From IMG/VR virus record IMGVR_UViG_3300029249_000159: a stretch of DNA of 8,321 bases; one strand, written 5' to 3'. The translations under genes were made by a program, and so were the position numbers. The stretch comes from a virus (Duplodnaviria > Heunggongvirae > Uroviricota > Caudoviricetes). Shown in pieces: positions 1,649-8,321 of the stretch (its first letter is position 1; every line of letters begins with the position of its first letter). The notes beneath the pieces were generated by a model that was not told where the DNA came from, did no database searches, and saw only the letters and a list, made by a program, of their open reading frames with translations.

Positions 1649-1804
1649 TTACTCCTCAGGTTCGTAAGCTGTGAAGACAGCGACCTCCGTCTGGCCGGTT
1701 CGGATTCGTACCTCGCAGAGGTCTTTCCTCGTTACCAGTGCCGTCACTATGACGGTTAAACAGATGACGATCAGGGCGATTAACATCGCCTTTTGCTGCT
1801 TCAT
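1649..1804 (-). CDS. hokD: Hok/Gef family membrane toxin (51 aa), HokD/RelF-like
   Basis: Translation MKQQKAMLIALIVICLTVIVTALVTRKDLCEVRIRTGQTEVAVFTAYEPEE has the Hok/Gef signature (N-terminal hydrophobic helix, TRKxLCE, GxTEVA, AYE) and matches my recollection of E. coli RelF/HokD. ATG at 1802-1804 with AGGAG 9 nt upstream (complement of 1814-1818). The track ORF 1649..1843 is a TTG-initiated 5' extension of the same frame. Confidence 0.85.
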   Translation of the reverse strand: MKQQKAMLIALIVICLTVIVTALVTRKDLCEVRIRTGQTEVAVFTAYEPEE

Positions 1805-1817
1805 AGCCTGCTTCTCC

Positions 1818-2965
1818 TGTGTAAGTTCACAGAGATATTGCAATTGCCTCCGGATAAGTAAGGGGAGATTGCACTATGCAAATGCAGCATCTGATGGTTG
1901 GCTATCCTAAGTACTACCAAACGGCCGATTATGCGTTGAGGCTTTCAGTGATGGCTGATATAGCAACAATGAGAATGAAGGCTCTGCACTTCTGGGATAA
2001 ACACGGTATTTCTGCAGCTTCTGAAGCCTTTGGCGTGTCCTGCCGCACGCTTTACTGGTGGCGTCAGTTACTGAACAAGGAAGGACCTGAGGGGCTAATC
2101 CCGCACAGTAAGGCACCTCTGGTGCGACGAAAAAAACACTGGCATCCCGATGTGCTGAAAGAGATTCGACGCCTCAGGACAGAGCTGCCGAACCTCGGTA
2201 AAGAGCAGATTTTTGTTCGCCTGAAGCCCTGGTGCGAACAGCGCTATCTGGCCTGTCCGAGTGTTTCCACCATCGGCAGAATGATCGCTGCCGCACATGA
2301 TAAAATGCGGATGATACCTGTGCGTCTGGGATCGCGGGGGAAGGCACTGCTTGTCAAAAAGCGGTCTGCCAAACCCCGCAGGCCAAAGCACTACCGCCCG
2401 GTAAAGACAGGTGAGCTCATTGGGATGGACGCCATTGAGCTCAGAATGGGCGAACTGCGTCGCTATGTCATCACCATGATCGACGAATGCAGCAATTACG
2501 CGCTGGCGCTGGCTGTGCCGTCACTCAACAGTGATATCGTCAATCACTTCTTCAGCCGCGCAGCCCGGTTGTTCCCGGTCGGTATCAGCCAGATAATCAC
2601 AGATAACGGAAAAGAGTTCCTGGGAAACTTCGACAAAACGCTGCAGGAAGCCGCTATCAAACACCTCTGGACCTATCCCTACACGCCAAAAATGAACGCT
2701 ATCTGTGAACGTTTTAACCGGACGTTAAGAGAGCAGTTTATTGAATTTAATGAGATTTTACTCTTTGAAGATCTGGCGCTATTTAACCAGAAGCTGGCGG
2801 AATATCTGGTGCTGTATAACAGCAAAAGACCCCACAAGGCGCTCGCACTAATGACGCCCGTGGAATATATTTTAAAAGAGAATAAAAATTGCAATATGTG
2901 GTGGACCCATACATCTCCTTGCCTTTCGGCACGTAAGAGGCTAACCTACATGTGTCTAGCATGAA
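1818..2965 (+). mobile_element. Putative IS481-family-like insertion sequence (ends not resolved)
   Basis: Single-ORF transposase with N-terminal HTH and DDE core. A TGTGTAAGTTCACAG motif at 1818 resembles the TGT-initiated terminal repeats of IS481-type elements and a ...CTAACCTACA end lies at 2941-2950, but I could not find a convincing matching inverted repeat or target duplication by eye. Boundaries are approximate. Confidence 0.4.
1876..2964 (+). CDS. DDE transposase / integrase catalytic (rve) domain protein, IS481-family-like (362 aa)
   Basis: ATG start; N-terminal helix-turn-helix-like region (GISAASEAFGVSCRTLYWWRQ); candidate catalytic triad in rve-type spacing: D in IGMDAIE, D in ITDNGKEF, E in NAICERFNRTLREQF, followed by the conserved K/R-rich segment YNSKRPHKAL. 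Single ORF rather than the two-frame IS3 arrangement. Confidence 0.75.
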   Translation: MQMQHLMVGYPKYYQTADYALRLSVMADIATMRMKALHFWDKHGISAASEAFGVSCRTLYWWRQLLNKEGPEGLIPHSKAPLVRRKKHWHPDVLKEIRRLRTELPNLGKEQIFVRLKPWCEQRYLACPSVSTIGRMIAAAHDKMRMIPVRLGSRGKALLVKKRSAKPRRPKHYRPVKTGELIGMDAIELRMGELRRYVITMIDECSNYALALAVPSLNSDIVNHFFSRAARLFPVGISQIITDNGKEFLGNFDKTLQEAAIKHLWTYPYTPKMNAICERFNRTLREQFIEFNEILLFEDLALFNQKLAEYLVLYNSKRPHKALALMTPVEYILKENKNCNMWWTHTSPCLSARKRLTYMCLA

Positions 2966-3487
2966 ATTGGCCTCAGATTAATGTTAAGCGTCTTGCAGGA
3001 CGCGTAATGTTAACTGGGGCTTTTCTCTATCTGCCGTTGGTGTTCATGCCTGAGGCAGATAGCCTCAAGCACCCGCAGCCATTCTACTTAACTCCCGTTA
3101 CCTCGCCAATATGAAATCAGTCAGAAAGGCGATCCATAAGAACAATAGCAAGACAATAAATCGCCATTACAGCCGTAATAGCCAGCGCACATTTGAGAAC
3201 CAGCACCACAACCTCCTGTATTGGATGTACACCAGTCCTGATGAATATGAGGCTGTCTCGTCAGTGATTCAATGCAACTATTGGGTATAGTTTCTCTGAT
3301 TTTTTCTGTGGAAATGGGGCTCAACCACTAGTCACCACCAGCACTTCTTTTAATACGCAAAGTCCGACACAAGCTAACCTTCTAGTCCGCTTTGAGCGAA
3401 AAGCAGGAGTTCATAGTTTATTACCCCTGTACTGCCTCTGCTTAGGTGGTCATATCCAGTGTGCCATTATCCTGTTAGGGCTCACTA

Positions 3488-6549: not shown

Positions 6550-6957
6550 ATGGATACAAGAACCCTAGGCCAGCGAGTTCTGGCGCGACGAAAAGAATTA
6601 CGCTTAACACAACGAGAAGCTGCGCGCCTCGCTGGAGTTGCTCACGTCACAATTTCACAATGGGAAAGAGACGAAACCCAGCCAGTCGGAAAACGATTGT
6701 TTGCTTTAGCGGATGCTCTGAAGTGCTCACCTACATGGCTAATGTTTGGTGACGAAGACAAGGCACCAGTGCCGGCACAAGAACTTCATGTGGAAACAGA
6801 GCTAACTCCCAACCACAAAGAATTGATCGAATTATTCGATGCTCTTCCATCTTCCGAGCAGGAAGCCTTGCTGTCTGAAATGCGCGCAAGAGTAGAAAAC
6901 TTCAACAAACTCTTCGAAGAAATGCTTAAAGCGCGTAAAAATAAATCAATAAAATAA
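6550..6957 (+). CDS. dicA: HTH XRE-family repressor, DicA-like (135 aa)
   Basis: ATG at 6550; N-terminal HTH (LRLTQREAARLAGVAHVTISQWERDETQP) and a C-terminal tail (SSEQEALLSEMRARVENFNKLFEEMLKAR) that closely resemble my recollection of E. coli DicA, same length. A TAGAAT hexamer sits only 9 nt upstream of the ATG, so the transcript may be leaderless like lambda cI from PRM (inference). Confidence 0.85.
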   Translation: MDTRTLGQRVLARRKELRLTQREAARLAGVAHVTISQWERDETQPVGKRLFALADALKCSPTWLMFGDEDKAPVPAQELHVETELTPNHKELIELFDALPSSEQEALLSEMRARVENFNKLFEEMLKARKNKSIK

Positions 6958-6992: not shown

Positions 6993-7012
6993 TTGTTAGA
7001 TCAATCTAACAA
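6993..7012. promoter_or_regulatory. Operator palindrome upstream of the ydfA-dicF operon
   Basis: Perfect inverted repeat TTGTTAGA-tcaa-TCTAACAA, the same half-site as the intergenic operator at 6483-6500. A degenerate third copy (TGTTAGG-ttat-TCTAAAT) at 7030-7047 lies within the spacer of the candidate promoter. Confidence 0.55.
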
Positions 7013-7019
7013 AAAACAC

Positions 7020-7048
7020 TTGCCTCTTATGTTAGGTTATTCTAAATT
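7020..7048 (+). promoter_or_regulatory. Candidate promoter of the ydfA-dicF-dicB-like operon
   Basis: -35 TTGCCT (7020-7025), 17-bp spacer, -10 TAAATT (7043-7048), flanked and overlapped by the operator palindromes. Confidence 0.35.
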
Positions 7049-7125
7049 ACTTTCCATCAAGACACCGCACGGTGTTCTCAGCAAACAGTTCCGCTACCCC
7101 GGCGTTAAGGGGAAATGAGGTCAGC

Positions 7126-7278
7126 ATGGATACTATCGATCTTGGCAACAGCGAATCTCTAGTATGTGCCGTGTTCCCCAACCAAGACGGTACGTTCACC
7201 GCGATGACATATACCAAAAGCAAAACGTTTAAAACCGAATCTGGCGCGCGTTGCTGGTTAGCCAGAAACACTGACTGA
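7126..7278 (+). CDS. ydfA: Small protein, YdfA-like (50 aa)
   Basis: ATG at 7126 with GAGG 5 nt upstream; MDTIDLGNSESLVCAVFPNQDGTFTAMTYTKSKTFKTESGARCWLARNTD. First gene after dicA, as ydfA is in Qin. The track ORF 7072..7278 is a GTG-initiated 5' extension. Confidence 0.6.
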   Translation: MDTIDLGNSESLVCAVFPNQDGTFTAMTYTKSKTFKTESGARCWLARNTD

Positions 7279-7289
7279 TGAGGCTGACG

Positions 7290-7655
7290 ATGGAATTTAA
7301 AGATTTACCGTCTGATGTACAGAAAACAGCAGCTCATACATTGCATTCTGTGCTGCGAGAAATCGGGAAAGATATTGCAAGCGAGCCAGCAAAAGATCTG
7401 GCCCGGAAAATCAAGACCGCTTTCGTTGAGCTTTATAATGTTGGCACTGACTCTGAAACTGTCGAGACCAAGACCGTAAGTTCACCAATATTCTCACTTG
7501 AGCCAAGCGTATTATCAGGTGAAATATGCACCGAGATTTCCAGCGAACTGCTTCCGGTAATACGAGAAGCAATTTGCCGTCGCGGTTTGGATGGAAGTTA
7601 CGATCATGACGTCCTGCAAGTTCTCAGGACAATGGTGACGTCACTGGGGATTTGA
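7290..7655 (+). CDS. Hypothetical protein (121 aa; 125 aa if started at 7278)
   Basis: ATG at 7290 with GAGG 5 nt upstream (MEFKDLPSDVQKTAAHTLHSVLREIGK...). An alternative ATG at 7278 overlaps the ydfA stop (ATGA). No family recognised; occupies the slot where Qin has ydfB/ydfC. Confidence 0.5.
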   Translation: MEFKDLPSDVQKTAAHTLHSVLREIGKDIASEPAKDLARKIKTAFVELYNVGTDSETVETKTVSSPIFSLEPSVLSGEICTEISSELLPVIREAICRRGLDGSYDHDVLQVLRTMVTSLGI

Positions 7656-7824
7656 TCCCTGCGTCCTCTAACCTTTTGATATAGCGGTCCTCCAAGAAGC
7701 GGTAAATTTTGTCGAAATCATCTTTCCCCTCTGGTTTATTCAGAGGATTACAGGACCCGTAAGTAGCGGCATACATTTCAACCGTTTTATCAAAAATATA
7801 AGAGACAAATTCTTCTTTAGTCAT
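7624..7824 (-). CDS. Hypothetical small protein (66 aa), antisense to the operon
   Basis: ATG at 7822-7824 with AAGGAAA 6 nt upstream (MTKEEFVSYIFDKTVEMYAATYGSCNPLNKPEGKDDFDKIYRFLEDRYIKRLEDAGIK...). The track ORF starts further upstream without a comparable RBS. Its 3' end overlaps the 3' end of the 121-aa gene by 32 nt (convergent); local sequence is AT-rich by eye. Confidence 0.45.
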   Translation of the reverse strand: MTKEEFVSYIFDKTVEMYAATYGSCNPLNKPEGKDDFDKIYRFLEDRYIKRLEDAGIKSPVTSPLS

Positions 7825-8089
7825 ATAGATTTCCTTCTTGGTTATTCGGGATAAGAAGGATACCACCTCGCCTGACGTGGTTAAAAGCAGGCACACAACA
7901 CGAAAGCGCACGGCGAAGTTCGTCTCACTGTACGGTGTCGTTAAATTTAATTCGACCGTGCGCTTCCGGTTGTGGCAACCCGCGAAATGGCGCGGCGGTA
8001 AGTATGGCGGGGTTATTCCTTCCCCGTTGAGGACACCGGGTTGTCAGGTTGACCATACGCTTAAGTGACACCCCTGCCACAACACTCCA

Positions 8090-8147
8090 TGTTGATTGGT
8101 ACCTTTGGCGGCATCAGTTTCATTGCTGGCTGATGTCCGCCCTTTTT
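8090..8147 (+). ncRNA. dicF: DicF-like small regulatory RNA
   Basis: Positioned between the operon ORFs and the downstream gene start as in Qin. Contains the TTTGGCGG...ATCAGTTT core (8104-8119) and a terminal GGCGG/CCGCC stem plus CCCTTTTT (8137-8147) that match my recollection of E. coli DicF, with differences in the loop region. The 5' end is a guess (RNase processing in K-12). Confidence 0.6.
8107..8147 (+). terminator. Intrinsic terminator forming the 3' end of the DicF-like RNA
   Basis: Stem GGCGG (8107-8111) pairing with CCGCC (8137-8141) enclosing an internal structured loop, followed by CTTTTT (8142-8147). Confidence 0.55.
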
Positions 8148-8315
8148 AAAGTGAATTTTGTGATGCGGTGAATGCGGCTGAGCGCACGCGGAACAGTTAA
8201 AACCAAAAACAGTGTTATGGGTGGATTCTCTGTATCCGGCGTTAATTGTTAACTGGTTAACGTCACCTGGAGGCACCAGGCACTGCATCACAAAATTCAT
8301 TATTGAGGACGCGAT

Positions 8316-8321
8316 AATGAA
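8316..8321 (+). CDS. Start of a downstream gene (5'-partial view; DicB-like by position)
   Basis: ATG at 8316 with GAGGA 6 nt upstream (8305-8309); only ATGAA is inside the window, consistent with a start such as Met-Lys. The DicB identity is inferred from synteny alone. Confidence 0.3.

What the first reader, a model, noticed from the sequence alone, without database searches (positions are those of the whole stretch)
8090..8147. Divergent DicF-like sRNA variant
The RNA keeps the TTTGGCGG...ATCAGTTT core and terminator of DicF, but the internal region differs from the K-12 sequence as I recall it. Because DicF represses ftsZ and other mRNAs by base pairing through specific regions, sequence changes could shift its target spectrum.
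Basis: partly seen in the sequence, partly recalled or inferred. Interest (0 to 1): 0.45.

Follow-up and report, generated by a model that had tools for sequence, protein, structure and literature searches.

The report
Divergent, unannotated DicF small-RNA allele
This is a real but divergent version of the prophage small RNA DicF. It keeps the family's terminator scaffold and genomic position but has replaced the stretches that the E. coli K-12 RNA uses to silence the cell-division gene ftsZ and other genes, so it probably regulates different targets.

Summary
Window 8094-8147 (+) lies where K-12 dicF lies, in the early-left (dicBF) operon of an intact Qin-type lambdoid prophage, 171 nt upstream of dicB. 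The flanks are 97.7% and 97.8% identical to K-12, but the 73-nt core is only 60% identical.

It matches Rfam DicF over the full model (38.8 bits, E 5e-7). That is below the gathering score of 48; K-12 scores 76.7. It folds into a stronger terminator hairpin (-21 against -15.9 kcal/mol) followed by five U.

Conserved: UUUGGCGG.AUCAGUUU, the CCGCCC stem base and the U-tail. Replaced: the 5' tail, the loop and the inner 3' arm, which are the parts K-12 DicF uses to pair with xylR, ftsZ, pykA and manX.

Binding calculations that recover all four validated K-12 interactions give no signal above background for this allele on ftsZ, xylR or pykA. The manX signal is weak and depends on the method.

The allele recurs. 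Its stem-loop module is in 147 of 5,426 complete E. coli genomes. It is one of several classes that combine different tails and loops, and every non-K-12 E. coli-type class tested falls below Rfam's threshold.

Verdict: a new variant of a known kind. Expression and targets are untested.

The parts
8094..8106 (+). Predicted single-stranded 5' tail GAUUGGUACCUUU, the candidate seed region. Its 5' end is uncertain (about 8090-8100). The UUU directly before the hairpin is conserved in most alleles.
   Evidence: Rfam alignment starts at 8094. Unpaired in the MFE structure. Differs from the K-12 tail UUUCUGGUGACGUUU.
8107..8141 (+). Terminator hairpin: 5' arm GGCGGCAUCAGUU (8107-8119), loop UCAUUGCU (8120-8127), 3' arm GGCUGAUG-U-CCGCC (8128-8141). 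The base GGCGG/CCGCC and CAG/CUG are invariant across alleles; the loop and inner 3' arm are replaced relative to K-12.
   Evidence: Energy -21.0 against -15.9 kcal/mol for K-12.
8142..8147 (+). C followed by a run of five U: the intrinsic termination point and likely Hfq-binding 3' tail.
   Evidence: Identical in all 14 aligned alleles.
8069..8093 (+). Upstream part of the divergent patch. In the precursor fold, about 8076-8099 is predicted to form a small hairpin with a CUCCA loop. The 5'-processing site must lie here or at the start of the tail.
7885..8068 (+). Untranslated, structured leader shared with K-12 (97.7% identity over 7940-8068). This is the precursor from which DicF is processed.
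   Evidence: ORFs here have no Pfam match.
8148..8317 (+). Conserved dicF-dicB spacer. It is nearly invariant across 102 loci and gives a sub-threshold STnc100-like match at 8154-8294. In K-12 it carries the read-through 3' extension of the 72-nt form.
   Evidence: The 72-nt form is described in PMC5069750.
8318..8321 (+). Start of dicB (cut by the window end).
6550..6957 (+). DicA-like HTH repressor (135 aa), upstream of the operon that carries the sRNA.
   Evidence: compared with K-12 dicA.
7126..7278 (+). ydfA-like DUF1391 gene, the first gene of the dicBF-type operon. It is followed by a 121-aa ORF (7290-7655) with no Pfam match, which replaces ydfB and ydfC.

Best explanation
The element is an allele of the prophage sRNA gene dicF with retargeted pairing regions.

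Inferred by homology with K-12: transcription of the DicA-controlled early-left operon (ydfA-like gene, orf121, leader) stops at the intrinsic terminator at 8107-8147. Nuclease processing near 8090-8100 then releases an RNA of about 50 nt. That RNA consists of a short single-stranded 5' tail (GAUUGGUACCUUU), a GC-clamped hairpin and a U-tail, which is the usual architecture of an Hfq-binding sRNA. In cis, the hairpin also separates the immunity-proximal genes from dicB and the recombination genes.

Shown here: the scaffold (UUUGGCGG.AUCAGUUU ... CCGCCCUUUUU) is conserved, while the tail, the loop and the inner 3' arm are exchanged.

Inferred from energy calculations: the RNA no longer forms the K-12 duplexes with ftsZ (3' part), pykA (loop and 3' arm), manX (+35..+50, 3' arm) or xylR (5' tail). 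It therefore most likely acts on a different, still unknown, set of mRNAs through its 5' tail and possibly its loop. Division inhibition at this locus would be left to DicB.
For: Homology and position. Structure.

Modular family. The IMG/VR sample gave 120 loci and 24 distinct sequences:
- K-12-like: 94
- class B: 12
- window-like loop class: 10
- hybrids: 4
Tails and loops recombine: the K-12 tail occurs with another loop in L115 and in E. albertii L137, and a K-12-like loop occurs with another tail in Salmonella L135.

The allele is maintained. The 40-nt stem-loop module is in 147 of 5,426 E. coli genomes and is exact in 77 records. The 66-nt allele is at least 99% identical in 21 records.

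The hybrid L115 keeps only xylR (z -4.5), as expected if the 5' tail carries that specificity. Against 183 real translation-initiation regions, the allele ranks 90/183 on ftsZ, 73/183 on pykA and 72/183 on xylR. An accessibility-aware local method gives the same result.

The ftsZ leader (-70..+40) is at least 99% identical in 5,389 of 5,425 genomes, so the divergence does not compensate for a changed target.

The K-12 pairing regions are taken from PMC5069750 and PMC5861419.
Against: - No expression, processing or Hfq data exist for this allele, and its 5' end is unknown.
- The stem pairs are invariant, so there is no covariation support.
- Energy-based target calls are weak tests. The local method did not recover the validated K-12 DicF-ftsZ pair (rank 64/120).
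- The tail AUUGGUA is perfectly complementary to ftsZ +21..+27, with further pairs at +10..+16, so residual ftsZ control is not excluded.
- No positive target was identified. The only hint is manX: -8.9 kcal/mol, z -2.6, rank 7/183, but 19/120. It relies on a generic anti-Shine-Dalgarno-like UACCUUU.
Confidence: 0.6

Rival explanations
1. It is functionally equivalent to DicF. The allele still represses ftsZ and inhibits division, but through its 5' tail pairing in the early ftsZ coding region (+10..+27) rather than through the 3' part pairing at the ribosome-binding site. Hfq might assist, as at manX.
For: AUUGGUA pairs perfectly with ftsZ +21..+27, with CC/GG and UUGG/CCAA pairs at +10..+16. 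The K-12 tail is complementary to the same ftsZ stretch. Only 6-7% of shuffled targets bind as well. The locus is otherwise a division-inhibition module, with dicB downstream.
Against: Predicted binding is -7.0 kcal/mol against -14.4 for K-12, z -1.2. Rank is 90/183 among real leaders. The CUCCG anti-Shine-Dalgarno segment and the CUGCUCUGCC arm needed in K-12 (DicF9 and DicF23 mutants) are absent. In K-12 a 5'-end mutation (DicF3) did not affect ftsZ control. Most of the predicted duplex lies outside the five-codon window described.
Confidence: 0.15
2. It is only a cis-acting intrinsic terminator of the early-left operon, analogous to lambda tL1. Any released RNA has no trans function. The divergence would be drift, or recombination constrained only to keep a hairpin and a U-tract.
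For: The hairpin is more regular and more stable than in K-12. Loop and tail sequences vary widely among alleles. No convincing target was found. Diversity over the sRNA is no higher than over the upstream leader in 102 loci.
Against: The K-12 homologue is a proven Hfq-dependent trans-acting sRNA. A terminator alone would not need the sequence conserved beyond the stem base (UUU before the stem, AUCAGUUU). The allele classes are discrete, and each is kept unchanged in many unrelated strains, for example 77 exact copies of the 40-nt module.
Confidence: 0.22
3. It is a chance resemblance: an unrelated GC-rich terminator that happens to share short motifs with DicF.
For: The score is below the Rfam gathering threshold.
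Against: The model match is full length at E 5e-7. The position relative to dicB is identical and the flanks are about 98% identical to K-12. A graded series of intermediate alleles exists.
Confidence: 0.01

Closest known systems
DicF of E. coli K-12 prophage Qin (Rfam RF00039; b1574)
   Same: Same locus in the dicBF-type operon and same strand, about 170 nt upstream of dicB. The flanks are about 98% identical. It shares UUUGGCGG.AUCAGUUU, the CCGCCC stem base and five U, and has the same overall design of 5' tail plus terminator hairpin.
   Different: - The tail region is 4-8 nt shorter, depending on the alignment used, and has a different sequence.
- The loop UUUUACUCCGUGA is replaced by UCAUUGCU, with loss of the CUCCG anti-Shine-Dalgarno segment.
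- The 3' arm is CUGAUGUCCGCC instead of CUGCUCUGCCGCC.
- The hairpin is stronger (-21.0 against -15.9 kcal/mol).
- The Rfam score is 38.8 against 76.7 bits.
- The ftsZ, xylR and pykA duplexes predicted for K-12 DicF are lost, as is the validated manX duplex at +35..+50.
Multiple DicF copies of enterohaemorrhagic E. coli
   Same: They are prophage-borne dicF genes in dicB-containing early operons. Several copies per genome are common, up to 11 places per genome for the dicF-dicB region.
   Different: The EHEC-type copy examined here (strain 2014C-4423, L005) is K-12-like: 75 bits, one substitution in the loop region. The published EHEC work concerns such copies (reviews read). The window allele belongs to a different sequence class.
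Other DicF-like allele classes found here: class B, the E. albertii/L115 hybrid and Salmonella L135
   Same: Same scaffold and same downstream flank. All the non-K-12 E. coli-type classes are sub-threshold for Rfam, at 28.6-45.4 bits.
   Different: Each class has its own tail and/or loop. The window allele combines the tail GAUUGGUACCUUU with the loop class (C/A/U)AUUGCUGG. Salmonella keeps the K-12-like ACUCC loop and passes the Rfam threshold (60.6 bits).
Other intra-operonic or 3'-UTR-derived Hfq sRNAs made by early termination plus RNase E processing (for example SdhX, SroC)
   Same: The inferred biogenesis is the same. As reported for SdhX, the sequence outside a short functional segment is free to vary (PMC9438474).
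   Different: Here the presumed pairing segments are what differ between alleles, and the element is carried on a mobile prophage rather than in the core genome.

Membership tests
DicF RNA (Rfam RF00039) | Score at or above the family's gathering threshold (48 bits) against the covariance model | tested here: not met
   38.8 bits, E 5.3e-7, full-length alignment 1-52. Not reported in the gathering-threshold scan. K-12 scores 76.7, EHEC 75 and Salmonella 60.6.
DicF RNA (Rfam RF00039) | Orthologous position: inside the dicBF-type operon, downstream of the ydfA-type genes, same strand as dicB and about 170 nt upstream of it, in a lambdoid prophage immunity region | tested here: met
   dicA-like repressor, DUF1391 gene, leader, sRNA, then dicB at 8318. 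Flanks are 97.7% and 97.8% identical to K-12.
DicF RNA (Rfam RF00039) | 3' Rho-independent terminator hairpin with a GGCGG/CCGCC base and a U-tract, preceded by a single-stranded 5' segment | tested here: met
DicF as functionally defined (antisense inhibitor of ftsZ translation) | Extended complementarity of the 3' part to the ftsZ ribosome-binding region (-28..-2), including CUCCG opposite the Shine-Dalgarno sequence | tested here: not met
   K-12 gives 37 intermolecular pairs, -14.4 kcal/mol, z -3.6. The window allele gives -7.0 kcal/mol, z -1.2, with only CGCC pairing at -28..-25 in that region. Rank is 90/183. This is an in-silico test only.
DicF as functionally defined (antisense inhibitor of ftsZ translation) | 5'-end pairing with xylR (+10..+19), and loop/3'-arm pairing with pykA and manX (+35..+50) | tested here: not met
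   xylR z -0.4 and pykA z +1.6. The K-12 manX site is lost. An alternative weak tail pairing with the manX Shine-Dalgarno region depends on the method.
DicF as functionally defined (antisense inhibitor of ftsZ translation) | Accumulates as an RNA of about 53 nt (72 nt from read-through), binds Hfq, has an RNase E-generated 5' end, and causes filamentation when expressed | not testable with these tools
   Needs northern blot or RNA-seq, 5' RACE, Hfq co-immunoprecipitation and microscopy.
STnc100 (Rfam RF02076) | Score at or above the gathering threshold (47 bits) | tested here: not met
   The adjacent region 8154-8294 scores 35.5 bits. The K-12 spacer scores 34.4. It is not part of the sRNA itself.

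The most novel reading that the evidence does not exclude
dicF is not one sRNA but a modular scaffold carried by lambdoid prophages. A fixed Hfq-binding and terminator module would have interchangeable 5' tails and loops shuffled onto it by recombination, giving different prophages different host or competitor-phage targets. The textbook ftsZ-antisense DicF would then be only one class, and this allele would be a non-ftsZ class. Its target set might include the mannose transporter operon manXYZ, which is also the entry route for lambda DNA.
Probability: 0.3. Interest if true: 0.55.

Novelty: new variant of a known kind. Interest (0 to 1): 0.4.

Why it matters
DicF is the classic prophage-encoded sRNA. 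It is usually treated as a single sequence that blocks ftsZ translation.

This allele and its sister classes are invisible to Rfam-threshold annotation. They occur in about 2-3% of complete E. coli genomes and lack the ftsZ, xylR and pykA pairing segments.

If they are expressed, 'DicF-positive' strains are heterogeneous in what the RNA controls. Conclusions from K-12 or EHEC copies on division, metabolism, virulence and phage exclusion cannot then be transferred automatically. The allele series also offers natural seed-swap mutants on a constant scaffold for testing how sRNA specificity evolves on mobile elements.

Tried and rejected
1. Longer 5' ends. An ACUCCAUGUUGAUUG stretch at 8082-8096 resembles the K-12 loop ACUCCGUGACUG, and in an MFE cofold it pairs with the pykA ribosome-binding site. 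With shuffled-target controls, RNAs starting at 8080 or 8070 show no significant binding to pykA or ftsZ (z -0.3 to +1.3). STEC379 lacks the CUCC. Rejected as coincidence.

2. The idea that the sRNA body is a population-wide diversity hotspot. In 102 distinct loci the upstream leader is as diverse as the tail and loop. Only the pairwise contrast with K-12 is sharp.

3. Covariation support for the hairpin. All stem-base pairs are invariant, so this is uninformative.

4. Extended antisense target by BLAST. The 40-nt and 66-nt queries hit only dicF-type loci in 5,426 genomes. The sensitivity is too low to detect short seeds.

5. Literature search for the allele sequence found no paper containing it. 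The EHEC primary paper, Faubladier & Bouché 1994 and Murashko & Lin-Chao 2017 are not held, so earlier descriptions of dicF-like variants could not be checked.

6. Protein-coding readings of the overlapping ORFs (8049-8171 +, 8061-8300 -, 7925-8080 -, 7838-8068 +). None has a Pfam match.

7. A top background hit was judged chance-level: a 10-nt complement to the loop and 3' arm in a phage gene leader in L083 and L072. About 0.8 such matches are expected by chance.

8. A genome-wide target search was not possible, because no whole host genome could be loaded.

Full report
**What is in the sequence**

The finding's coordinates hold a 5' segment followed by a strong hairpin and a U-run:
- 5' segment TGTTGATTGGTACCTTT (8090-8106)
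- hairpin GGCGGCATCAGTT / TCATTGCT / GGCTGATG-T-CCGCC (8107-8141)
- C plus TTTTT (8142-8147)

As RNA the hairpin folds at -21.0 kcal/mol (z -3.07; 0 of 200 shuffles fold as well). It is the only + strand terminator-like site in 7000-8321.

The default Rfam scan of the window reported only a sok match far away. A permissive scan aligns the whole DicF model (1-52) to 8094-8142 at 38.8 bits, E 5.3e-7, below the gathering score of 48. K-12 and an EHEC-type copy score 76.7 and 75 bits under the same conditions.

**Context**

The window is identical to part of E. coli DCE7 record NZ_CP090612.1. It covers the immunity and early region of an apparently complete lambdoid prophage. The genes annotated in that record are:
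- antiterminator Q, RusA, hok and an IS
- replication genes and a Cro-like regulator
- a DicA-like repressor
- a DUF1391 (ydfA-like) gene and a 121-aa ORF
- then the sRNA, dicB, ydfD-like gene, exonuclease, xis and int, next to rspB

This is the K-12 Qin arrangement ydfA-ydfB-ydfC-dicF-dicB-ydfD. dicB starts at 8318, at the same spacing from the sRNA as in K-12.

Pfam confirms the HTH repressor and DUF1391. It finds nothing for the four ORFs that overlap the sRNA and its leader on either strand.

**Homology and the pattern of divergence**

I aligned the window with K-12, an EHEC-type strain and two other strains. Against K-12 the identities are:

| Window segment | Identity to K-12 |
|---|---|
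| upstream leader 7940-8068 | 97.7% |
| core 8069-8141 | 60.2%, with 10 gap columns |
| dicF-dicB spacer 8142-8321 | 97.8% |

Conserved inside the RNA are UUUGGCGG, AUCAGUUU, the CCGCCC stem base and the U-tract.

Three parts are changed:
- the 5' tail (K-12 UUUCUGGUGACGUUU; here GAUUGGUACCUUU)
- the loop (K-12 UUUUACUCCGUGA; here UCAUUGCU)
- the inner 3' arm (K-12 CUGCUCUGCC; here CUGAUGUCC)

The new arm pairs almost perfectly with the 5' arm. This explains the more stable hairpin (-21.0 against -15.9 kcal/mol).

**The allele is one of several recurrent classes**

I ran a pattern scan of IMG/VR anchored on the conserved scaffold.

| Class | Loci |
|---|---|
| K-12-like | 94 |
| class B (a long U-rich loop) | 12 |
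| window's loop class, (C/A/U)AUUGCUGG, with at least six different 5' tails; one locus (L043) identical to the window | 10 |
| hybrids | 4 |

The same pattern in one genome per species found true matches only in Escherichia, Shigella and Salmonella, plus a few metagenome bins that look contaminated.

Modules recombine:
- The K-12 tail occurs with a different loop in L115 and in E. albertii L137.
- Salmonella L135 has a K-12-like ACUCC loop and 3' arm with a different tail.
- The class B tail occurs with the window's loop class in L102.

In 5,426 complete E. coli genomes the 40-nt stem-loop module is present in 147 genomes and is exact in 77 records. The 66-nt allele including the tail is at least 99% identical in 21 records and 95-99% identical in 15.

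The non-K-12 E. coli-type classes tested score 28.6-45.4 bits against Rfam DicF, so threshold-based annotation would miss them. No paper in the searchable library contains the allele's sequence.

**Does it still pair with the known DicF targets?**

The literature gives these pairing regions for K-12 DicF:
- The 3' part pairs with the ftsZ ribosome-binding site and with pykA (PMC5069750).
- The 5' end pairs with xylR (PMC5069750).
- The 3' end pairs inside the manX coding region (PMC5861419).

I computed ensemble binding energies (dimer minus monomers) for each sRNA with -70..+50 of each target (to +80 for manX). Each was compared with 100 dinucleotide shuffles of the target.

| Target | K-12 DicF (z) | Window allele |
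|---|---|---|
| ftsZ | -3.6 | -7.0 kcal/mol, z -1.2 |
| xylR | -4.6 | z -0.4 |
| pykA | -3.6 | z +1.6 |
| manX | -2.5 | -8.9 kcal/mol, z -2.6 |

The K-12 MFE duplexes fall where the papers place them: ftsZ -28..+25, xylR +10..+19 and manX +35..+50.

The natural hybrid L115 (K-12 tail, other loop) keeps only xylR (z -4.5). This is an internal check that specificity is modular.

Against 183 real translation-initiation regions taken from the fetched prophage loci, the allele ranks 90/183 on ftsZ, 73 on pykA, 72 on xylR and 7 on manX.

A second, accessibility-aware local method ranks K-12 DicF first or second of 120 on xylR, manX and pykA. It missed the long, discontinuous ftsZ duplex. It gives the allele no target better than background, with manX at 19/120.

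The manX signal comes from UUGGUACCUUU pairing with the Shine-Dalgarno region GGAGGUAGCAA. That is a generic kind of match, so I treat it as a lead only.

The tail AUUGGUA is perfectly complementary to ftsZ +21..+27, so some residual ftsZ interaction cannot be excluded.

The ftsZ leader is at least 99% identical in 5,389 of 5,425 genomes. The allele differences therefore do not track target variation.

**Interpretation**

Shown here:
- The element is a homologue of dicF at the orthologous locus.
- Its scaffold is conserved.
- The segments that K-12 DicF uses for pairing are replaced.
- It belongs to a recurrent, unannotated allele class.
- It loses the predicted K-12 duplexes.

Inferred:
- It is made like DicF, by termination plus 5' processing.
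- It binds Hfq.
- It acts in trans on a different set of mRNAs, while also serving as the operon's internal terminator.

The main rival is that it is only a terminator. A second rival is that it still controls ftsZ through its tail. Neither can be excluded without experiments.

By homology it is a DicF-family allele. It fails two membership tests: the Rfam threshold and complementarity to the ftsZ ribosome-binding site. It should therefore not be annotated as a functional ftsZ-antisense DicF.

**Limits**

- No transcript data were available and the 5' end is unknown.
- Target prediction was restricted to four known targets plus a small background, because no host genome could be loaded.
- There is no covariation; the stem is invariant.
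- Population-level diversity is not specifically concentrated on the sRNA.
- Three primary papers that might describe dicF-like variants were not available.

Noticed in passing
window 1649-3074 (- strand hok/sok; IS at about 1835-2897): A hok/sok-type toxin-antitoxin locus appears to be split by an IS481-family insertion. The sok/hok-leader Rfam match (111.9 bits) is at 2908-3074, while the annotated hokD CDS is at about 1649-1804. Between them lie a 362-aa transposase ORF (1876-2964 +) and perfect 11-nt inverted repeats at 1835-1845 and 2887-2897. The transposase ORF runs 67 nt past the right repeat, into the hok leader.
   Followed up: partly
window 8148-8296: The dicF-dicB spacer is more conserved than DicF itself across 102 distinct loci: mean pairwise difference is 0-0.08 over 8137-8196 and 0.01-0.09 over 8237-8296. 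It gives a reproducible sub-threshold match to Salmonella sRNA STnc100 (35.5 bits here; 29-41 bits in ten other loci). This suggests a conserved structured RNA or dicB leader of unknown role.
   Followed up: partly
L001 (NZ_CP090612.1, 'plasmid' pDCE7-1, 420 kb): The only 100% match to the window is on a record labelled as a 420-kb plasmid. Next to the prophage integrase it carries the chromosomal genes rspB, rspA, ynfA, ynfB, speG and ynfC, which is the K-12 Qin neighbourhood. Possible explanations are a mis-assigned chromosome fragment, a mis-assembly or a very large chromosome-derived replicon.
   Followed up: no
window 7890-8070: The roughly 180-nt untranslated leader upstream of the sRNA is 97.7% identical to K-12 over 7940-8068. 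It folds into a long irregular helix plus several hairpins. Folded together with the sRNA (7890-8147), the energy is -99.2 kcal/mol (z -3.06). Its function in processing or antitermination is unknown.
   Followed up: no
L143 (Candidatus Nanosynbacter bin), L138 ('Proteobacteria bacterium' bin): Short contigs in metagenome-assembled genomes of unrelated taxa carry a class B dicF with the exact E. coli-type downstream flank. This is most likely contamination of the bins by Escherichia prophage DNA.
   Followed up: no
L068 (894-1359) and L127 (4834-5318): In two IMG/VR loci with unusual DicF-like alleles, the sRNA lies within a few hundred bases of isrK and C4 antisense RNA matches that are above threshold. 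These prophages therefore cluster several regulatory RNAs in one early region.
   Followed up: no
window 7290-7824: ydfB and ydfC of K-12 are replaced here by a 121-aa ORF (7290-7655 +). A convergent 66-aa ORF (7624-7824 -) is annotated on the opposite strand inside the operon. Neither has a Pfam match.
   Followed up: partly
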